Of a stretch of DNA of 21,121 nt, positions 1,901-19,055 are shown piece after piece (position 1 is the stretch's first letter; each line of letters begins with the position of its first letter). Origin of the DNA: a virus (lineage: Duplodnaviria; Heunggongvirae; Uroviricota; Caudoviricetes); IMG/VR virus record IMGVR_UViG_2690316318_000022; one strand, given 5' to 3'. The notes beneath the pieces are model-generated. The model was not told the DNA's origin. It searched no databases and saw nothing but the letters and a program-made list of their open reading frames with translations. A program made the translations under genes and the position numbers.

Positions 1901-2473
1901 TTAGCCCATCATTTTTCTATACGCCTCTGCAGCCTGCTCCGGCGTTAAGTTGGTAATTTCTGTTCTGACGGGTCCTCCATCAGCGCCAGTCACTTCATTT
2001 TTGACGTTGTCTTTAAACGCCTGAACAGAAACATGACGCCCAAGCAACTCAAGGTTTTTAACCTTATCAGGCCACTTAATCTTTTTAAGGATCCCGACCA
2101 TTTCTCTGTCATCTCCTCGCCCCTCAAACATTTCAGCGAGGTTAAATCCACTCAGGTACCGACGCCACGATTCCGGCCACGCAGACAGAGGCTTAATACT
2201 TAAATCGTCCTCCAGGATGTCAGCCACATCGAGCCTGTCGATCTCAACCAGTCGCATCAGCACATAATTCGCATCAATGCCCAGTTGATCAATACGCTCC
2301 TGCTTTAGCTCGTTAATACGGGCGCGTATCTCAGGTTTACCGTATAGTTCAGCCCCCGTAACATGTGCTCGCCTGGAGACGTAGCCTGCGCGAATAGCTG
2401 CTTGTGTAGCATTCAGATCGACAAGAAACTCGCGACAAAACACCTCGTGTTTTGCTTTCAGCTTCTTAGTCAT
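1901..2473 (-). CDS. terS: Terminase small subunit (TerS), HTH-containing
   Basis: 190 aa ORF ending 3 nt before the terL start. N-terminal segment [25 protein letters not shown] resembles the conserved DNA-binding motif of small terminases. Confidence 0.75.
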
Positions 2474-3864: not shown

Positions 3865-3965
3865 ACTTCCCACCTCCGCCATTACGGGGTGTTGTTGAAA
3901 GGCGGGCCCTGCGTATACGCCCGTAGGATTGGGTTATGAGCCGTCCTTCGGTGGGCCCTGAATAC

Positions 3966-3988
3966 AAAAAAAGTTCGCCATAGCGAAC
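3966..3988 (-). terminator. Rho-independent terminator on the minus strand, upstream of the holin
   Basis: Minus-strand RNA would read GUUCGC-UAUG-GCGAAC followed by UUUUUUU (plus-strand A-run 3966-3972, stem 3973-3978 and 3983-3988). Confidence 0.6.
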
Positions 3989-4218
3989 CTTGTTAAATTT
4001 GTTAAAAAAGGAAGTTATTTAACATAATGTACGTTATAGGAACCACACGATCCCCGCTCGCAATAGATTTGCGATGAAAGGCCTATTTAATCAACTTAAG
4101 TGGTCCAGAATGACGAAATTCGAGTGAATAAAAGGTGCATAAAAAAGGGCAAAAACTGCATAGCGTTTTTTCGCGACGAAAACCCTGTTTTATTAACTTT
4201 TACTGAGAATAGAGCATT

Positions 4219-7583: not shown

Positions 7584-7808
7584 TTACACCTTTTGCTGCT
7601 CTGAATTTTCGCCGTTTAATAGCCAGTCAGGATCACATTTAAGAACTTTTGCCAATTCAAGAATGAAGCCAGTACGAGTGGCACGACCGGATTCAAGGTA
7701 CTGAACAGACTGCTGGCGCATACCAACCCTTTCCGCCAATGAAGTTTGGGTTATGCCTAAGGCTTTGCGGCGCTCCTTTATACGTGAAGCAAGAGTGGAA
7801 CCGGACAT
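7584..7808 (-). CDS. cro: Cro-like HTH (XRE family) regulator
   Basis: Small HTH protein (LGITQTSLAERVGMRQQSVQYLESG), first gene of the operon divergent from cI. ATG at 7808 has a GAGGAAG SD; the track ORF starts at an upstream GTG (7823) that I consider less likely. Confidence 0.75.
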   Translation of the reverse strand: MSGSTLASRIKERRKALGITQTSLAERVGMRQQSVQYLESGRATRTGFILELAKVLKCDPDWLLNGENSEQQKV

Positions 7809-7828
7809 AAATAACTTCCTCACATGTT

Positions 7829-7895
7829 TACAGGTTTACTTGTAATTAACCCACAGGCACTCTTGTTTGTCAAATACAGATAGCTCTGTAATTAT
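7829..7895. promoter_or_regulatory. Rightward operator (OR)-like region with divergent promoters for cro (minus) and cI (plus)
   Basis: Two 16-bp sites of form TACAnn-N4-nnTGTA: TACAGGTTTACTTGTA (7829-7844) and TACAGATAGCTCTGTA (7875-7890). Minus-strand -35 TTGACA (7868-7873) with a -10-like GTTAAT; plus-strand -35 TTGTCA (7867-7872) with a -10-like AATTAT (7890-7895). Confidence 0.6.
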
Positions 7896-7917
7896 CAATG
7901 ACAGAAAAGGAGTCGAT

Positions 7918-8547
7918 ATGAATCTTGCTATCCGGGCCAAAAAGCGCAGAACAGAACTCAATTTAACTCAGGTCGAAGTTGCTAAACGAGCGGGCATAAG
8001 CCAGCAGTCAATAGAAGCTATAGAGAACGGCAAAACGCTAAAACCACGTAACCTTCTTGCTTTAGCATCGGCTCTGGAGTGTGATCCTAAGTGGTTACTA
8101 CTCGGGGGTGATGTTGTCACGAATTTCAACTACGGAGCCCGAAGGGTGCCTGTTCTAAGCTATGTACAAGCCGGAGCTTTCACAAGCACTGAACAACTTC
8201 ATGAAGGCGGTGATTTCGAATACATCCTGACAACAACGGAATTATCAGAGCGTTCGTTTGCTCTCCGTATACGCGGAGATTCGATGGAGCCAGAATTTAA
8301 AGAGGGTGACATCGTTATAATTGACACTGACGTATACCCTACCCCTGGCGAATTTGTTGCGGCATGCAATGGTAGCCATGAAGCAACGTTCAAAAAGTAC
8401 CGCCCGGTAGGGATTGGCGCTAAAGGTGAGGAAGATTTTGAACTTGTTCCCTTAAACAGCGATTACCCTATTTGCCGCTCCTGGGAAAAACCTATCAAGA
8501 TTATTGGAACAATGGTGGAGCATCGCATATTCCGCCGAAAAAGATAA
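7918..8547 (+). CDS. cI: CI-like repressor: N-terminal HTH plus C-terminal S24 (LexA-like) autopeptidase domain
   Basis: HTH (LNLTQVEVAKRAGISQQSIEAIENG), candidate Ala-Gly cleavage site in VQAGAF, Ser nucleophile motif GDSMEP and a downstream Lys. ATG at 7918 has a strong AAGGAG SD; the track ORF begins upstream at 7867. Confidence 0.85.
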   Translation: MNLAIRAKKRRTELNLTQVEVAKRAGISQQSIEAIENGKTLKPRNLLALASALECDPKWLLLGGDVVTNFNYGARRVPVLSYVQAGAFTSTEQLHEGGDFEYILTTTELSERSFALRIRGDSMEPEFKEGDIVIIDTDVYPTPGEFVAACNGSHEATFKKYRPVGIGAKGEEDFELVPLNSDYPICRSWEKPIKIIGTMVEHRIFRRKR

Positions 8548-8569
8548 TCGCATCTTCGCTTCAAACAAA

Positions 8570-8591
8570 GAGGGCTATGGCCCTCTTTTTT
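8570..8591 (+). terminator. Rho-independent terminator after cI
   Basis: GAGGGC-TATG-GCCCTC followed by TTTTTT, 23 nt after the cI stop. Confidence 0.7.
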
Positions 8592-8633: not shown

Positions 8634-8677
8634 TACAAGAATACCTGTTGACTTAATTACAGGTTTACTTGTACTTT
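8634..8677 (+). promoter_or_regulatory. Leftward operator (OL)-like site and PL-like promoter directing plus-strand transcription
   Basis: TACAGGTTTACTTGTA at 8658-8673 is identical to the OR site at 7829-7844; a degenerate second site TACAAGAATACCTGTT lies at 8634-8649. -35 TTGACT at 8648-8653 and a -10-like TACTTT at 8672-8677. Confidence 0.5.
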
Positions 8678-8695
8678 TAATCCAACGAAGTAATC

Positions 8696-8707
8696 GCTCT
8701 TTAACAA
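8696..8707 (+). promoter_or_regulatory. boxA-like element (GCTCTTTAACAA) in the leader just downstream of the PL-like promoter
   Basis: 12-nt match to the E. coli rrn boxA core, from memory, about 10-25 nt downstream of the predicted start. Compare lambda nut boxA CGCTCTTA. Confidence 0.4.
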
Positions 8708-8852
8708 ACAGAACCGCGTGACAGGTAAGCCGCAGTGCTCCTGGCAAAACGAAATAGCACCCGATGGGATCGAGGTAAGCGCCGAGTCCGTATGCGTACG
8801 GTAAGCGTAGAGGACAACACCGCGATGAACTGATAAGTCACGCAAGTTGAAA

Positions 8853-8879
8853 CGCCCCGATGATGGGGCGCTTAGTTCC
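8853..8879 (-). terminator. Possible terminator for the minus-strand gene 8922..9491
   Basis: Hairpin CGCCCC-GATGAT-GGGGCG (8853-8870), about 50 nt downstream of the gene's stop. The U-tract on the minus strand is weak (UUUCAACUU), so this is tentative. Confidence 0.35.
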
Positions 8880-8921
8880 TTTAACTCTGGGTGACCGGAA
8901 GGGTACCCATGCTTAAAGAAA

Positions 8922-9491
8922 TTACTGGTTGTAAGGATCGTAATCCGTGATTGCCTTCCCCGGATTTTCATCTTCAGAAGGCAGTCGGGCCTCTAAAGCA
9001 TTTCGGTTGAACAGATAGGAAGCCCTACAGTACGAACAAACCATATTAACGGCTCGCCCAAGGCCTGGCTTAGTAACCAGTCCTTCCGCTTGCAATATAG
9101 ATTTTCTCTTTTGCTCGTAGCAATTGGGACAAATATAAACCGGAGATTGGTCAGCATCTGCAGAAAGCTTGCTGCGATAGACCAGAGTCCCCCGCATAGG
9201 CTGGTAAAGTTCATAGCTCGCCGCTTCAGCGGCCCAGTTCTCTTGCTTTACTTTCTCATTTTCCAGTTCAACAATTTTCTCCTTAGCCGCAATCAGCAGC
9301 TCCTGAAGCGACATTTGCTGCATCTGAACATCCATTAGCTTATCGAGTAAGATGTGCGTCTTCTCTTTAACTGCATAGTCTACAGTCAGATTCTGAATCT
9401 CTCTTGCTGCTCCAACCGCGCTTTTAATTGCTCCTCCCACGCCGGATAACGATTCAGTTATCCGGGAAAGAATTCCTTTTTCTTCAGACAT
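8922..9491 (-). CDS. Hypothetical protein (189 aa): predicted coiled-coil N-terminal region plus C-terminal CxxC...CxxC zinc ribbon
   Basis: ATG at 9491 with a GAGAGAGA SD-like. Heptad-like charged region (LQELLIAAKEKIVELENEKVKQENW), then CPNC...(about 30 aa)...CSYC. Antisense to the PL-driven operon, adjacent to the immunity region. Confidence 0.6.
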   Translation of the reverse strand: MSEEKGILSRITESLSGVGGAIKSAVGAAREIQNLTVDYAVKEKTHILLDKLMDVQMQQMSLQELLIAAKEKIVELENEKVKQENWAAEAASYELYQPMRGTLVYRSKLSADADQSPVYICPNCYEQKRKSILQAEGLVTKPGLGRAVNMVCSYCRASYLFNRNALEARLPSEDENPGKAITDYDPYNQ

Positions 9492-9502
9492 ATCTAATCT
9501 CT

Positions 9503-9552
9503 CTCAAACTGTAGGGGTGAAGAGATATTAGACGATTTCTCACTGTAGGGGT
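9503..9552. repeat. Two direct repeats TCTCA(A)ACTGTAGGGGT in the promoter region of gene 8922..9491
   Basis: ACTGTAGGGGT at 9508-9518 and 9542-9552, each preceded by TCTCA, 34 bp apart, between the divergent gene starts. Confidence 0.45.
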
Positions 9553-9630
9553 ACAAGGAGAACCACCTCGCCTGATGTGGTTAAAAGCAGGCACTCGATG
9601 ATATCCATGTAATTGCTGTGTGTAGTCTTT

Positions 9631-9656
9631 GCCCGCCGCAAGTGACGGGCTTTTTT
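9631..9656 (+). terminator. Putative plus-strand terminator (tL1-like) between the PL leader and the first early-operon gene
   Basis: GCCCG-(10-nt loop)-CGGGC followed by TTTTTT. Short stem, hence moderate confidence. Confidence 0.45.
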
Positions 9657-9715
9657 ATGTCTGAAAGCGCACTCGCAACAGCGCGCTCCCCGATATGAAA
9701 AAAGGAATACAACCG

Positions 9716-12632: not shown

Positions 12633-12683
12633 AAATATTCATCCCCCAGCTACGTGCTGGGGTATCTCATGAGGGAAAGTATA

Positions 12684-13325
12684 ATGTCACAGCCCGTATT
12701 AACTAATCACCTTAAAACTCAAATCATCAATAACGCACTTGAGAAAGCGGGTATTCCCAAACGTAAATCAGCACTACGAGCTGCTCGTGTTGAATGGGCC
12801 GAACGTGTTCGGCTTGCAGCTATCGGGGGCGTAGAGAAAGAAGCTGAAATATTAAAAAATATAAAAAAGATTGAATCCATGGTCACAAAAATCCCTAATT
12901 CATTAAAAACCAATAGTTCTTTAATTCGAAAAGATTGCTGCATATATCTCAATCTGGCTGGAGCCAGAGCAAACATTTATTTCAATGGCAACTACAGAGG
13001 TTATGAATCAGGAGCCCCCGAGCATATTAATAAAATAGCACCTGCAGAATTTACTCTACTTGGCGAAGATCCTCTGGTAACGGAGTTTTATAGCTTTGAT
13101 GCTCTCTACACACAAATTAAAAGTGATGAAACCGAAATCATACAGAACGTCAGCGCGGCTCTAAATAAAGTTCGGACAGTAAAACGATTACTGGATGTAT
13201 GGCCCGAAGCTAAAGAACTGCTTCCAACAGACGCACCGCCAGTCCCTTTAGCACCAGCAGTACATCGAGAGACATTAAATGAAATGATAGGCCTTCCTAC
13301 CAATACAGTGTCTGATACTCAATAA
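12684..13325 (+). CDS. Hypothetical protein (213 aa from ATG 12684; the track ORF starts at GTG 12654)
   Basis: SD GAGGGA 7 nt upstream of the ATG at 12684. Moderately AT-rich. 3' end overlaps the convergent gene by 7 nt. Confidence 0.5.
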   Translation: MSQPVLTNHLKTQIINNALEKAGIPKRKSALRAARVEWAERVRLAAIGGVEKEAEILKNIKKIESMVTKIPNSLKTNSSLIRKDCCIYLNLAGARANIYFNGNYRGYESGAPEHINKIAPAEFTLLGEDPLVTEFYSFDALYTQIKSDETEIIQNVSAALNKVRTVKRLLDVWPEAKELLPTDAPPVPLAPAVHRETLNEMIGLPTNTVSDTQ

Positions 13326-14008
13326 CAAGGGGGATGCTTATTATATGATTTTGAACATTTTACAATCTCGTTAAGAGGCGTGAAATCAAAATCTCTGAAT
13401 AACACATCAGGATACTTCGCTCTTGCTTTATCCAGCAAACCAGTTAAAGTATTTTTTGTGTTACCCAACATTGTATTAACCGCCACTACATGTCTAATTT
13501 CTGGAGGTTTATCTATACCACCAGAAATTGCTTCATTAAGAACCGACGCCAGTGGGGTTTGTCCCTTACTTGTTGAATCCCACAGCGTCATTAACAGACG
13601 AGCTGCGTCTATAAATAGCTTTTTGTCAGCATTTGGCTTGACAGTAATACCGGAACTACCTGAGCCAGAACCGGAACGTTCTATTGCTGCACTGGTATCC
13701 GATTTCATAGGATTAAATAACGGAAGCTCTGTACAACCGATACGCCGAATGAAATCCTTTGCAACATCTCTACCACAGAAAAAAGCCCCTGTACAATTTT
13801 CATCAGAGCGTTTTTTAAATGAAAAACAATAGTACTGATCGGTTAACGGATAACCGGAATAACTGGTTTTAGTTTGTCCAGTAATAAGTTTCAGGTGTGC
13901 AACAGGCTGAATAATAAAATCCCGAACTATCGCATCTTTTATGTCGTTACCACGGTGACAATAATATTCAGGTAATCCATTAGGCTGTCTCTTATTACCC
14001 ACAGTCAT
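13319..14008 (-). CDS. Hypothetical two-domain protein (229 aa): Cys/His-rich N-terminal region, SGSGSGSSG linker, C-terminal domain
   Basis: Strong SD AAGGAGA 7 nt upstream of the ATG at 14008. AT-rich by eye (about one third GC in sampled stretches). Antisense to the surrounding replication operon. Confidence 0.6.
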   Translation of the reverse strand: MTVGNKRQPNGLPEYYCHRGNDIKDAIVRDFIIQPVAHLKLITGQTKTSYSGYPLTDQYYCFSFKKRSDENCTGAFFCGRDVAKDFIRRIGCTELPLFNPMKSDTSAAIERSGSGSGSSGITVKPNADKKLFIDAARLLMTLWDSTSKGQTPLASVLNEAISGGIDKPPEIRHVVAVNTMLGNTKNTLTGLLDKARAKYPDVLFRDFDFTPLNEIVKCSKSYNKHPPCY

Positions 14009-16138: not shown

Positions 16139-16354
16139 ATGTCATTTAAATACCGGGATAATCCACTTTATTACAGGGCTGCAAGGGAAGCTTTGCGACT
16201 TGAACAATCCGGCGAATATGACCGGGCAGCGGAGGTCTGGGCAAAAGCCAACCGCGAATCACATCACGAACTGAATCAGGAATGGAGTGAACGCAGATCT
16301 GATTTTTGCCTGATGCAGAACATGCGTGAAAAGCGTAAGGCGGTCGAAGAATGA
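16139..16354 (+). CDS. Hypothetical small protein (71 aa)
   Basis: Track ORF with AAGGA SD, translationally coupled to neighbours. Confidence 0.45.
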   Translation: MSFKYRDNPLYYRAAREALRLEQSGEYDRAAEVWAKANRESHHELNQEWSERRSDFCLMQNMREKRKAVEE

Positions 16355-16650
16355 TCGTTTACGTTGCCGGGCCGATGAGCGGTTACGAGCAATTTAACCG
16401 CCCGGCCTTTCATTCCGCAGCAAAGAGGCTAACGGACAAGGGATATGTTGTGCTTAACCCCGCAACTTTACCCAATGGTTTGACACAGGCTCAGTACATG
16501 GACATCTGCCTCGCAATGCTTCGCTGTGCCGATACGATTTATATGCTCAAAGAGTGGGAGTACTCTGCCGGCGCACGTGCAGAAAACGCGTTGGCAGAGA
16601 AACTGGAATTGAATGTGCTTTTTGAAGAGTGGGATTCAGATGGCCTATGA
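16351..16650 (+). CDS. DUF4406-family protein (nucleoside 2-deoxyribosyltransferase-like fold)
   Basis: N-terminal VYVAGPMSGYEQFNRPAF...VVLNPA pattern characteristic of DUF4406, from memory. Confidence 0.6.
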   Translation: MIVYVAGPMSGYEQFNRPAFHSAAKRLTDKGYVVLNPATLPNGLTQAQYMDICLAMLRCADTIYMLKEWEYSAGARAENALAEKLELNVLFEEWDSDGL

Positions 16651-16914: not shown

Positions 16915-17640
16915 TCATTCTGAGCGATTTTTCTTGAGCTTAGAAGCTTTTAAAAAACATACTTTTAGTTGTTGTGTTTCTTTTATGCTTACAGGAATTA
17001 ATTTCCCCTCAATTCCTTCGACACTCATAAATTCAGAGCTATTTTTTTTACAGTTCCCCAAGACAAATTTTCCGTTATAGCTTTCGATAATATAAGCATC
17101 ATATTTTTTAGAATAAAAAAGAGGCTCATCTGATAAGTATGCCCATGCCCACCCAAGGACTGAAGGAAGCATTGCTATGGATATAAAAAGCATAACCCCA
17201 TGAGTTTTGTTTTTTATTCTAAATTCATTCCTAATAAAAACAGATACTGCCCTGACACTGATAGGGCTAATAAATCCCAATAGTATTGCTTGGGTAGCCA
17301 CATCCCTTATGGATTTTTCATAAAGGTATGAGCTACCGCCATATAAATACATTGTCCAGTATGAAAGCAAAGAGGCCAAAATGAAGAAAAATAAATACAC
17401 CCACCATGGAATATTCTTCTCTTCAGTATCAATATGCAGCAAAGCGACTAAGGTGCACAAAAGTCCTAATGCAATAACAGAAAATTTAACTATTTCCTCA
17501 ATCCCAATAGAAATAAAACTTACAGGGAATCCATAAAATGAGCAGTACCCTTTGTAAAAAGAAAAAGCCATAAAATAAAGGGCGGCCAAGAGAACCGTTG
17601 TAATTGATAAATCTTTTACATTCATGATGTTCAAGAGCAC
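16915..17640 (-). CDS. Hypothetical multi-pass membrane protein (241 aa), AT-rich antisense insert
   Basis: AAAGGTG SD-like before the ATG at 17640. About four or five hydrophobic segments in the first 170 aa and a charged C-terminal tail. About one third GC in sampled stretches, against roughly 55% in the flanks. Convergent with VRR-NUC and divergent from SNF2. Confidence 0.6.
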   Translation of the reverse strand: MLLNIMNVKDLSITTVLLAALYFMAFSFYKGYCSFYGFPVSFISIGIEEIVKFSVIALGLLCTLVALLHIDTEEKNIPWWVYLFFFILASLLSYWTMYLYGGSSYLYEKSIRDVATQAILLGFISPISVRAVSVFIRNEFRIKNKTHGVMLFISIAMLPSVLGWAWAYLSDEPLFYSKKYDAYIIESYNGKFVLGNCKKNSSEFMSVEGIEGKLIPVSIKETQQLKVCFLKASKLKKNRSE

Positions 17641-17663: not shown

Positions 17664-19055
17664 ATGATAACTTTTAAACCACGTCCCTACCAAGATCTCA
17701 TCATCAATCATCAAATCGAGACCCTGCGCGGCAACATCTGGGCAGGGATGGGGATGGGTAAAACCGTAGCGACACTCACCACGCTGGAAGATCTTTTCAT
17801 GGCTGGAGCAGAAACACGCCCCGCGCTGGTCCTCGCGCCGCTACGCGTTGCAGCAAGCACTTGGCCTGATGAAGCTGTTAAATGGGGGCATCTGCGTAAT
17901 ATTGAGGTACAGCCGATCATCGGTAACGCCAAAGCGCGCTCTACAGCGCTGGCGAACAGCAACGCGAGCGTGTTCACAATCAACTACGATAACCTTGTCT
18001 GGCTGGTTGAAGAATTGGGAGAACGATGGCCGTTCGGTACTGTCATTCCAGATGAAAGCACCCGGCTAAAATCCTTCCGGCTGCGAGGTGGTGGTAAGCG
18101 CGCGGCGGCGCTGGGCAAAGTGGCGCACAAGTATGTCCGGCGCTGGATAAATCTCACCGGTACGCCAGCACCGAACGGCCTGGTAGATTTGTGGGGACAA
18201 TCGTGGTTTGTGGACCAAGGGCAACGTCTCGGGCGCACTTACGGCGCGTTTACCTCACGCTGGTTCAAATCGATACAGTTTCCGGGGCAGAGCTGGACCA
18301 AACTGGAGCCTTTTGCTCACTCACAGGGTGAAATACAGCGAGCGTTAGCCGATGTGACCCTCTCGCTGGATGCGGCCGACTGGTTCGATATCAAAGACCC
18401 CATCCATAACGTAATCCGCGTGGATATGCCGCCGAAGGCCCGTCAGCAGTATCGTGAAATGGAAAAGGAAATGTTCCTCGAGCTGAATGGCGAAGGCATC
18501 GAAGCACCGAACGCCGCGGCAAAGACACTGAAGTGTCTGCAAATCGCCAGCGGCGCAGTATACACAGATGACACCGGAAGTTGGTCAGAACTGCATGACA
18601 CCAAACTACAGGCGCTGGACAGCATACTGACCGAAGCAGCTGGCGCACCTGTGCTGGTTGCTTATCACTGGAAACACGATCTTGAACGCTTGCTTAAAGC
18701 ATTTCCTCGCGGTCGTCACCTCGACCAGGATCCACAGACACTACGTGACTGGAATTCCGGAAAGATTCCTGTTCTCTTTGCACACCCAGCCAGCGCGGGC
18801 CACGGTCTGAACATGCAGGACGGCGGAAACATACTGGTATTTTTCTCACATTGGTGGGACCTGGAGCAGTATCAGCAAATTATTGAACGTATCGGCCCAA
18901 CCAGACAGATACAGGCCGGACACAATCGTCCGGTATTTATTCACCACATTATTGCTGCCGACACTATGGACGAAATGGTGATGGAGCGGCGCAACTCAAA
19001 ACGAACAGTGCAGGACATCCTGCTCGATGCCATGAAAAAGAGAGGTATAGCATGA
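17664..19055 (+). CDS. SNF2-family (SF2) helicase/ATPase
   Basis: Q-motif PRPYQ, Walker A GMGMGKT, DExx-type motif VIPDEST, C-terminal helicase domain; 463 aa. Confidence 0.85.
   Translation: MITFKPRPYQDLIINHQIETLRGNIWAGMGMGKTVATLTTLEDLFMAGAETRPALVLAPLRVAASTWPDEAVKWGHLRNIEVQPIIGNAKARSTALANSNASVFTINYDNLVWLVEELGERWPFGTVIPDESTRLKSFRLRGGGKRAAALGKVAHKYVRRWINLTGTPAPNGLVDLWGQSWFVDQGQRLGRTYGAFTSRWFKSIQFPGQSWTKLEPFAHSQGEIQRALADVTLSLDAADWFDIKDPIHNVIRVDMPPKARQQYREMEKEMFLELNGEGIEAPNAAAKTLKCLQIASGAVYTDDTGSWSELHDTKLQALDSILTEAAGAPVLVAYHWKHDLERLLKAFPRGRHLDQDPQTLRDWNSGKIPVLFAHPASAGHGLNMQDGGNILVFFSHWWDLEQYQQIIERIGPTRQIQAGHNRPVFIHHIIAADTMDEMVMERRNSKRTVQDILLDAMKKRGIA

What the first reader, a model, noticed from the sequence alone, without database searches (positions are those of the whole stretch)
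8922..9491. Coiled-coil plus zinc-ribbon protein encoded antisense to the PL-driven operon, beside the immunity region
The 189-aa protein has a heptad-like helical N-terminal half and a C-terminal CPNC...CSYC ribbon. It is read convergently against PL-like transcription and has its own promoter region containing two direct repeats. The position matches where lambdoid phages keep exclusion genes such as rexAB and sieB, but this architecture matches none of those as far as I can tell. It could be a defence effector or sensor, or a regulator of the genetic switch; convergent transcription with PL could itself be regulatory.
Basis: partly seen in the sequence, partly recalled or inferred. Interest (0 to 1): 0.7.

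Follow-up and report, generated by a model that had tools for sequence, protein, structure and literature searches.

The report
Rip1-type prophage anti-phage pore protein
The gene is real and encodes a close relative of Rip1, a prophage protein described in 2026 that kills an infected cell by building a membrane pore around an invading phage's small-terminase or portal ring. It is therefore a new member of a known defence family, not a new kind of system.

Summary
The ORF at 8922-9491 (- strand, 189 aa) is real. It has two long N-terminal helices and a C-terminal beta domain, and its four cysteines are invariant in 129 homologues.

It is 52% identical (E = 3.5e-47) to phage HK446 Rip1, "ring interacting pore 1" (PDB 9oox, a complex with the T6 small terminase). 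The AlphaFold model matches that chain (target-normalised TM 0.85) and nothing else in the PDB. According to a 2026 review, Rip1 (Patel et al. 2026, Nature) is a one-protein sensor and effector. Twelve copies assemble around the 11-mer terminase ring of an infecting phage and form a pore.

The gene lies between the repressor gene and the early operon. It is downstream of, and antisense to, an operator-controlled PL-like promoter. Its own promoter, which contains the two direct repeats, is 86% identical to the experimentally mapped P22 sieB promoter. The same cassette sits upstream of rip1, hkaP, sieB and an unrelated gene in other prophages.

The switch-regulator alternative is not. Three side observations may be new: a structured PL leader that starts with boxA, an RprA-like terminator module, and a variable gene slot.

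The parts
8922..9491 (-). rip1-like gene, 189 aa. It has N-terminal amphipathic and heptad-like helices (2-34, 39-90), a C-terminal beta domain with CxxC (121-124) and CxxC (152-155), and a low-confidence C-terminal tail (about 167-189) that ends in ITDYDPYNQ.
9518..9555 (-). sieB-type promoter of the gene. The -35 TGTACC is at 9555-9550, the -10 TAATAT at 9530-9525, and the predicted transcript start is A at 9518. These positions are mapped by alignment to the annotated P22 sieB promoter and RNA start site.
   Evidence: 86% identity to P22 29651-29736, annotated 'sieB: promoter | sieB RNA start site'
9508..9518 (-). Proximal direct repeat ACCCCTACAGT, at positions +1 to +11 of the predicted transcript.
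9542..9552 (-). Distal direct repeat ACCCCTACAGT. It overlaps the -35 region and lies 34 bp from the proximal copy.
9561..9582 (.). Conserved inverted repeat AACCAC-N10-GTGGTT at the upstream edge of the promoter cassette. Its role is unknown.
8853..8870 (.). G+C-rich hairpin CGCCCC-GATGAT-GGGGCG, 52 nt beyond the stop codon. On the - strand it is followed by TTTCAACTT and is the likely rip1 terminator. It is also the 3' hairpin of the conserved PL leader element.
8634..8677 (+). PL-like promoter with two operator copies (8634-8649 and 8658-8673) that flank the -35 TTGACT (8648-8653). The candidate -10 is TACTTT at 8672-8677.
8695..8872 (+). Conserved PL leader. It starts with boxA-like CGCTCTTTAACAA (8695-8707), continues with a structured domain of about 125 nt, and ends in the hairpin. 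PL transcripts cross it before running antisense through rip1.
9603..9656 (+). RprA-like 3' module (AATTGCTGTGTGTAGTCTTTGCCC) with an intrinsic terminator (stem 9631-9650, T-run 9651-9656). It lies between the rip1 promoter and the first early gene.

Best explanation
The ORF encodes a Rip1-family ("ring interacting pore") anti-phage protein carried as a prophage moron, meaning an extra gene with its own promoter and terminator.

**Proposed mechanism**
1. In the lysogen the gene is transcribed from its own sieB-type promoter while the repressor keeps PL off. The protein accumulates in an inert form.
2. A heterologous phage infects and reaches late gene expression. Its ring-shaped packaging protein (small terminase, or portal for some phages) then acts as a template.
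3. The C-terminal zinc-ribbon/beta domains of about 12 Rip1 copies dock around the ring.
4. The N-terminal amphipathic helices are brought together into a membrane pore. The inner membrane is breached before progeny are finished, and the infection aborts.

**Shown here:** the homology, the fold match, the conserved cysteines, the promoter homology and the gene context.

**Inferred from the family:** ring sensing, the 12-mer, the pore and abortive infection.

**My own inference:** on induction, PL transcripts read antisense across the gene and damp its expression. Their leader carries a boxA-like sequence, so they may be termination-resistant.
For: - **Sequence.** phmmer against PDB sequences finds one hit, 9oox "ring interacting pore 1 (Rip1)", E = 3.5e-47, query residues 3-166 against chain residues 3-162, with 12 chains in the entry. 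tblastn gives 52.4% identity to HK446_037.
- **Fold.** Foldseek of both AlphaFold models puts 9oox_M first: E = 4.6e-10, target-normalised TM 0.85, rmsd 2.5 A over 128 columns. The next hit has E = 0.3.
- **Family.** phrog_1244 matches at E = 3e-39. There are 1240 representatives at 50% identity, nearly all 150-180 aa. The only invariant columns are the four Cys, and W86, Y93, Y105 and L133 are nearly invariant. D3112 orf25 and the DMS3/MP38 homologues lie between a gene similar to a prophage DNA-binding protein (orf24) and orf26, just upstream of the portal gene. This fits the published position of Pseudomonas rip1, between the small and large terminase genes.
- **Published function.** The review PMC13434031 summarises Patel et al. 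2026 (Nature 651:1060). Rip1 is not toxic alone. Escape mutations map to the portal (Pseudomonas phages) or the small terminase (E. coli phages). Twelve Rip1 copies surround an 11-mer terminase ring. The N-terminal amphipathic helix and C-terminal contact domain are described. The complex releases dye from liposomes, and the genes are mostly found in prophages.
- **Expression.** The upstream 95 nt are homologous to the annotated P22 sieB promoter and RNA start. The same cassette precedes HK446 rip1 and HK620 hkaP, and 34 of 41 related viral loci carry both repeats.
- **Context.** The neighbours are a LexA-like repressor, cro, operators, and an early operon with exonuclease, SSB and DNA polymerase.
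Against: - No experiment exists on this protein. Identity to the solved homologue is only about 52%.
- It carries a tail of about 25 residues (...ITDYDPYNQ) and a loop insertion (VTKPGLGRAVN) that HK446 Rip1 lacks. Trigger range and even trigger type could therefore differ.
- I could not read the primary paper. The family's properties come from a review, a meeting report and the PDB entry title.
- Zinc binding, oligomerisation and pore formation cannot be tested with these tools.
- PADLOC 2023, Pfam and NCBIfam have no model for the family, so membership rests on pairwise and structural similarity.
- The antisense-silencing step has no direct evidence.
Confidence: 0.8

Rival explanations
1. 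It is a Rip1 homologue that has drifted to a different trigger or output. It might sense another oligomeric phage protein, or act as a superinfection-exclusion factor without forming a ring-templated pore. The subgroup-specific C-terminal DYDPY tail would supply the new specificity.
For: - Identity to HK446 Rip1 is only 52%. The tail and loop insertion are absent from the solved protein.
- The DYDPY motif recurs in a few distant members, for example P0127.
- The family already uses two trigger types, portal and small terminase.
- Two rip1 alleles only 45% identical occupy the same slot between about 95% identical flanks, as expected if specificity diversifies.
Against: The core fold, the four Cys and the nearly invariant residues are all retained. 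The tail has low model confidence (pLDDT about 56) and is absent from most members.
Confidence: 0.12
2. It is a zinc-ribbon nucleic-acid-binding regulator of the lysis-lysogeny switch or of PL transcription.
For: The gene lies next to the immunity region and is convergent with PL. Zinc ribbons often bind nucleic acids (general knowledge).
Against: - No DNA- or RNA-binding family matches it.
- The closest solved relative is a pore-forming terminase binder.
- Homologues sit in quite different places, such as between terminase genes in Mu-like Pseudomonas phages.
- Sibling prophages with the same switch lack the gene altogether (CB9615, B771). It is therefore dispensable for the switch.
Confidence: 0.03
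3. The gene serves the resident phage's own lytic cycle. For example, it could be a lysis-timing or holin-like accessory triggered by the phage's own packaging proteins, rather than a defence against other phages.
For: It is a pore-former activated by late phage proteins. The resident phage has its own small terminase (window 1901-2473, Pfam Terminase_2).
Against: - The gene is oriented against every surrounding lytic operon and has a lysogen-type promoter shared with sieB.
- It is absent from sibling phages that are otherwise the same.
- The resident small terminase shows no detectable sequence similarity to the T6 small terminase of 9oox. Its only PDB hits are four small-terminase sequences, led by 3zqp.
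Confidence: 0.04

Closest known systems
Rip1 of Escherichia phage HK446 (HK446_037; PDB 9oox, in complex with the T6 small terminase)
   Same: - About 52% identical over residues 3-166.
- Same predicted fold (target-normalised TM 0.85).
- Same four Cys.
- Same promoter cassette with two ACCCCTACAG repeats.
- Same orientation against the PL operon.
   Different: - HK446 rip1 lies downstream of N, inside a lambdoid PL operon. Here the gene lies directly between PL/boxA and the first early gene of a non-lambdoid replication module.
- This protein has an extra C-terminal tail of about 25 aa with a DYDPY motif, and a longer loop between the two CxxC knuckles.
- Its trigger is unknown.
Pseudomonas Rip1 homologues (D3112 orf25 and homologues in DMS3, MP38 and similar phages)
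   Same: Same family, with 30-32% identity and E about 1e-9 by tblastn. Same length class, conserved VYR, CxxC, SILQ and CxxC motifs, and antisense orientation inside a lytic operon.
   Different: They are located between the terminase genes of Mu-like phages. Escapers are reported in the portal rather than the small terminase. They have no sieB-type promoter cassette.
SieB of P22 and lambda (superinfection exclusion B)
   Same: Same genomic niche, as a lysogen-expressed gene antisense to PL. The promoter is homologous: 86% identity to the mapped P22 PsieB, including both repeats and the RNA start.
   Different: The proteins are unrelated. There is no Pfam SieB hit and no hydrophobic segment. 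P22 sieB also encodes an in-frame Esc product, and I found no counterpart here.
HK620 HkaP (annotated 'putative superinfection exclusion protein')
   Same: A family member (28-29% identity) with the same promoter cassette, lying antisense in the PL operon.
   Different: It is more distant and shorter (164 aa), and was never characterised. Its annotation was by position only.
Other terminase-sensing defences (Avs1-3, TerI) and membrane-targeting abortive-infection systems such as RexAB
   Same: They also sense conserved phage packaging proteins late in infection and kill the cell. Membrane collapse as the output resembles RexAB (general knowledge).
   Different: Rip1 is a single small protein that is both sensor and effector, with no NTPase or nuclease domain. 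There is no sequence similarity to these systems.

Membership tests
Rip1 (ring interacting pore 1) family | Significant full-length sequence similarity to an experimentally characterised Rip1 | tested here: met
   phmmer E = 3.5e-47 to 9oox_L, residues 3-166 against 3-162. 52.4% identity to HK446_037. E about 1e-9 to the D3112 and DMS3 homologues.
Rip1 (ring interacting pore 1) family | Fold: long N-terminal helices plus a C-terminal beta/zinc-knuckle domain, as in the cryo-EM structure | tested here: met
   The AlphaFold model (pLDDT 85.7) gives target-normalised TM 0.85 and rmsd 2.5 A to 9oox_M. No other PDB fold scores below E = 0.3.
Rip1 (ring interacting pore 1) family | N-terminal amphipathic helix, the membrane-active part | tested here: inconclusive
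   Residues 1-36 are helical with a hydrophobic moment of 0.34-0.44, a G/A/S-rich face and no transmembrane segment. This is compatible with the feature, but membrane activity was not tested.
Rip1 (ring interacting pore 1) family | Conserved C-terminal domain that contacts the trigger ring (CxxC...CxxC core) | tested here: met
   The four Cys are invariant in 129 sequences. Y105 and L133, which lie in the VYR and SILQ motifs, are nearly invariant.
Rip1 (ring interacting pore 1) family | A single-gene system carried by prophages as an independently transcribed moron | tested here: met
   The prophage context is shown. The gene has its own promoter and terminator. The nearest downstream long ORF is on the opposite strand in 32 of 41 related loci. 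No conserved partner gene was seen across contexts.
Rip1 (ring interacting pore 1) family | Assembles as about 12 copies around an oligomeric small-terminase or portal ring and forms a pore; harmless without the trigger; protects against phage | not testable with these tools
   Known only for HK446 and Pseudomonas Rip1. Testing it here needs phage challenge, co-expression and cryo-EM.
SieB (superinfection exclusion B) family | Protein homology to SieB, and its membrane-protein character | tested here: not met
   Pfam gives no SieB hit at E <= 1. The maximum 19-residue hydropathy is 0.86.
SieB (superinfection exclusion B) family | PsieB-type promoter (a regulatory feature, not protein membership) | tested here: met
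   86% identity to the annotated P22 sieB promoter and RNA start. The cassette is also upstream of lambda sieB.
Known defence systems in PADLOC-DB 2.0 (including RexAB, Abi and PD systems) | A match to any model | tested here: not met
   0 families at E <= 1. The library predates Rip1.

The most novel reading that the evidence does not exclude
The rip1 cassette is wired into a self-immunity switch. The gene sits inside a PL leader that starts with a boxA-like sequence and a conserved structured RNA, and that ends in an RprA-like terminator module. On induction, termination-resistant PL transcription would run antisense across rip1 and shut it off, by transcriptional interference or antisense RNA. 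The prophage's own packaging rings would then not trigger its pore. This would be a functional analogue of the P22 sieB/esc/sas self-protection circuit. Separately, the subgroup-specific DYDPY tail might retune trigger specificity.
Probability: 0.2. Interest if true: 0.55.

Novelty: new member of a known kind. Interest (0 to 1): 0.3.

Why it matters
- **Annotation.** The protein is still called "hypothetical" in RefSeq and GenBank. Pfam, NCBIfam and PADLOC 2023 have no model for it. Recognising it as Rip1-type gives a function to a gene slot seen in about 100-150 of 5,426 complete E. coli genomes, and to a family of more than 1,200 clusters at 50% identity.
- **Phage therapy and ecology.** It predicts which lysogens may abort infections by phages whose terminase or portal rings are recognised.
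- **Shared promoter.** One portable promoter cassette, the mapped P22 PsieB, drives unrelated exclusion genes (sieB, rip1/hkaP and a 159-aa unknown). It is present in more than 3,000 of 5,426 E. coli genomes. It could be used as a sequence flag to find further prophage defence genes.

Tried and rejected
**Database searches of the protein that found nothing useful**
- Pfam gave only sub-threshold noise, CRM1_repeat_2 and zf-C4_ClpX.
- PADLOC gave nothing.
- NCBIfam gave nothing.
- A Pfam scan of all 129 aligned members gave only scattered zinc-ribbon and coiled-coil noise, with at most 3 members per family.

**RNA searches**
- Rfam at gathering thresholds found nothing in the window.

**Literature**
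- A search for "hkaP" returned only unrelated papers.
- "Rip1" with "HK446" returned nothing.
- "RprA-like" returned nothing.
- The primary Rip1 paper is not held, by DOI or by PubMed id.

**Locus searches**
A2 worked.

**Ideas considered and dropped**
- I first read the gene as merely convergent with cI and divergent from the early operon. The operator pair and the TTGACT at 8634-8677 show a PL-like promoter upstream of the gene on the + strand, so I dropped that reading.
- I first took the conserved 175 nt downstream of the stop to be a rip1 3' UTR or a small ORF (104-aa ORF 8657-8971; a 47-aa CDS annotated in 606R2). I rejected this because the element persists in prophages without rip1 (B771), starts with boxA, and its covariation fits the + strand.
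- The ECs_2282 zinc-binding protein, which follows the same leader element in another prophage, is unrelated. So is the 159-aa gene behind the same promoter cassette.
- The 5' half of the RprA covariance-model match overlaps the promoter hairpin and is probably spurious. Only the 3' 58 nt are convincing.

Full report
**1.

The window has an ATG-initiated ORF of 189 aa at 8922..9491 on the - strand. Its N-terminus, MSEEKGI..., is shared with homologues, which supports the start codon.

AlphaFold2 with a shallow alignment gave mean pLDDT 71. With a 129-sequence alignment it gave 85.7. Both models show two long helices (2-34 and 39-90) followed by a small beta domain. Hydrophobic residues recur with a heptad period across about seven turns of the second helix. 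The first helix is G/A/S-rich and moderately amphipathic. No stretch is hydrophobic enough to be a transmembrane segment.

C121, C124, C152 and C155 are the only invariant columns in the 129-sequence alignment. The two direct repeats ACTGTAGGGGT are at 9508-9518 and 9542-9552.

**2. The surroundings**

- To the left lie a cro-like gene (7584-7823, -), a LexA/S24-type repressor (7867-8547, +) and a primase-helicase.
- To the right, on the + strand, lies an early operon: a small protein, a 300-aa protein, a DUF2800 exonuclease, a Gp2.5-like SSB, Nmad5 and a DNA polymerase.
- The repressor gene ends with a terminator at 8567-8588.
- The 16-nt operator of the cro-cI intergenic region (7829-7844) then recurs at 8658-8673 (exact) and 8634-8649 (3 mismatches). 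That is three matches against 0.09 expected by chance.
- These two copies flank a -35 TTGACT at 8648-8653.

This is a repressor-controlled rightward promoter, a PL analogue. The window is 99.9% identical here to E. coli prophages such as RIVM_C029670, and about 98% identical to phage vB_EcoM-606R2.

**3. What the protein is**

Pfam, PADLOC and NCBIfam have no model for it. PHROGs places it in phrog_1244, of unknown function (E = 3e-39).

Foldseek against the PDB returned one significant entry, 9oox: [quoted passage not shown]. With the better model, E = 4.6e-10, target-normalised TM is 0.85 and rmsd is 2.5 A. The next hit has E = 0.3. A sequence search of PDB chains gives the same single hit, "ring interacting pore 1 (Rip1)", at E = 3.5e-47 over residues 3-166. 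The entry holds 12 chains of it.

The phage database shows that the HK446 gene is HK446_037, at 52% identity. More distant relatives are HK620 hkaP and HK629/HK630 genes. Others are D3112 orf25 and the DMS3/MP38 genes, which lie between a gene similar to a prophage DNA-binding protein and orf26, just upstream of the portal gene. An exhaustive HMMER search finds 1,240 cluster representatives, nearly all 150-180 aa.

**4. What the family does**

This comes from the literature, not from tests here. I could not obtain the primary paper: Patel, McCarthy, Taylor et al. 2026, Nature 651:1060, doi 10.1038/s41586-025-10075-1. A 2026 review (PMC13434031) summarises it as follows.

- Rip1 was found in a Pseudomonas aeruginosa prophage, between the small and large terminase genes.
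- It protects lysogens and is not toxic alone. Infected cells round up.
- Escapers map to the portal (Pseudomonas phages) or to the small terminase (E. coli phages).
- Cryo-EM shows an 11-mer small-terminase ring surrounded by 12 Rip1 copies, with a central channel.
- The N-terminal part is an amphipathic helix, and the C-terminal half contacts the ring.
- The complexes release dye from liposomes.
- Homologues are widespread in Proteobacteria, mostly in prophages.

A meeting report and a Nature Communications paper agree.

**5. Mechanism proposed for this gene**

By homology, the lysogen makes the protein constitutively. A heterologous phage that reaches late expression supplies a ring-shaped packaging protein. 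The zinc-ribbon/beta domains of about 12 copies dock on that ring. The N-terminal helices form a pore, and the infection aborts.

- **Shown here:** the homology, the fold, the conserved residues, the promoter homology and the context.
- **Inferred:** trigger identity, stoichiometry, the pore and the phenotype.

The resident phage's own small terminase (1901-2473, Pfam Terminase_2) shows no detectable sequence similarity to the T6 small terminase of 9oox. Its only PDB hits are four small-terminase sequences, led by 3zqp. How the phage avoids triggering its own pore is unknown.

**6. The promoter with the two repeats**

The 95 nt upstream of the start codon form a cassette found upstream of several genes:

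- both rip1 alleles of this phage group;
- HK446 rip1 and HK620 hkaP;
- sieB of lambdoid prophages;
- an unrelated 159-aa gene.

The cassette occurs in more than 3,000 of 5,426 complete E. coli genomes and in 158 phage records. In P22 the matching stretch (86% identity) is annotated as the sieB promoter and sieB RNA start site.

Transferring that annotation by alignment gives the -35 TGTACC at 9555-9550, the -10 TAATAT at 9530-9525 and the +1 at 9518. The distal repeat overlaps the -35. The proximal repeat is the first 11 nt of the transcript. Among 41 related loci from viral contigs, 34 carry both repeats within 160 nt upstream. In 32 of them the nearest downstream long ORF is on the opposite strand (this used a crude ORF-based gene call).

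What binds the repeats is unknown.

**7. Convergent transcription**

The PL leader is itself noteworthy.

- It begins with CGCTCTTTAACAA (8695-8707). From my own knowledge, this is a 12-of-13 match to the rrn/nut boxA consensus TGCTCTTTAACAA.
- A conserved domain of about 125 nt and a G+C-rich hairpin (8853-8870) follow.
- The element is found behind different immunity regions in E. coli, Citrobacter, Pseudocitrobacter, Trabulsiella and Pluralibacter, with or without rip1.
- On ten distinct sequences, the RNAalifold consensus for the + strand has 44 pairs, of which 7 vary, 4 are compensatory and none is broken. The - strand consensus has 7 of its 14 variable pairs broken.
- The single-sequence fold is unremarkable on the + strand (z = +0.3). 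The sequences are also closely related, so this is suggestive only.

A termination-resistant PL transcript would cross rip1 antisense and then pass the terminator at 9631-9656. It remains untested.

**8. A variable slot**

Sibling prophages with the same early operon show different contents between PL and the first early gene:

- this rip1 allele;
- a 174-aa allele only 45% identical, yet lying between about 95% identical flanks;
- no annotated gene there (CB9615), or a small + strand gene in place of rip1 (B771).

In another prophage type, an ECs_2282-family zinc-binding protein follows the same leader element.

**9. Verdict**

A characterised family now exists, so this is a new member of a known kind. 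It differs from the solved HK446 protein by a DYDPY tail of about 25 aa, a loop insertion and a different host phage. Interest is modest for the gene itself. The shared PsieB cassette, the boxA leader RNA and the RprA-like module are the parts most worth a further look.

Noticed in passing
window 9492-9600 (- strand); also L002 about 3900-4000, L003 about 3890-3991, L009 2397-2570, L010 2357-2570, L011 901-986: A promoter cassette of about 95 nt precedes unrelated lysogen-expressed genes: rip1, hkaP, sieB and a 159-aa unknown. It consists of the inverted repeat AACCAC-N10-GTGGTT and two ACCCCTACAG repeats around a -10. It matches the mapped P22 sieB promoter and occurs in more than 3,000 of 5,426 E. 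coli genomes. It could serve as a flag for prophage exclusion genes. The factor that binds the repeats is unknown.
   Followed up: partly
window 8695-8872 (+ strand): A conserved PL leader starts with an rrn/nut-type boxA (CGCTCTTTAACAA), continues with a structured domain of about 125 nt (closing helix GCGUGAC/GUCACGC, GGUAAGC three times) and ends in a G+C-rich hairpin. It is present behind different immunity regions in five enterobacterial genera. Covariation favours the + strand (4 compensatory pairs, 0 broken). There is no Rfam family for it. It is a candidate processive-antitermination RNA.
   Followed up: partly
window 9547-9660 (+ strand), convincing part 9603-9656: There is a sub-threshold match to the RprA sRNA model (RF00034, 47.5 bits against a gathering score of 70, E = 3e-5). 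The 3' part, AAUUGCUGUGUGUAGUCUUUGCCC plus the terminator, is essentially identical to the RprA consensus. It lies just upstream of the first early gene and is conserved in sibling prophages that lack rip1. It may be a phage copy of the RprA 3' module, or simply a shared terminator.
   Followed up: partly
window 8696-9603 compared with L005, L006, L012 and L013: The interval between PL and the early operon is a variable gene slot. It holds two rip1 alleles only 45% identical at the protein level between about 95% identical flanks, no annotated gene (CB9615), or a 68-aa + strand gene (B771). In another prophage, the same leader element is followed by an ECs_2282-family zinc-binding protein.
   Followed up: partly
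window residues 167-189 of the ORF (DNA 8922-8993): A C-terminal tail ending in (T/A)DYDPY is shared by a few family members, including a distant one (P0127, 28% identity). It is absent from HK446 Rip1 and has low model confidence. Its function is unknown.
   Followed up: no
window 13319-14008 (- strand): A second ORF (229 aa) is read against the early operon, between Nmad5 and the DNA polymerase gene. It has no PHROG, Pfam or PADLOC hit. 606R2 and CB9615 carry a 209-aa hypothetical gene at the same place. It may be another moron. The ORF at 16915-17640 (-, 241 aa) likewise has no Pfam or PADLOC hit.
   Followed up: no
L005 3303-3497 (+ strand; E. coli CB9615 prophage): In the prophage that lacks rip1, the slot contains an unannotated 64-aa ORF with CPAC...CPGC cysteine pairs.
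   Followed up: no
L001 1-3 (606R2 record 38874-39635): The sibling phage vB_EcoM-606R2 carries a gene for a TIR-like domain protein just beyond its DNA polymerase gene. This suggests that this phage group carries several defence-type cargo genes.
   Followed up: no
window 12654-13325, 16351-16650 and 17664-19055 (+ strand): The early operon encodes Nmad5 (a nucleotide-modification-associated domain), DUF4406 and an SNF2-type helicase with weak similarity to DpdE and ZorD. This hints at a DNA-modification module in this phage.
   Followed up: no
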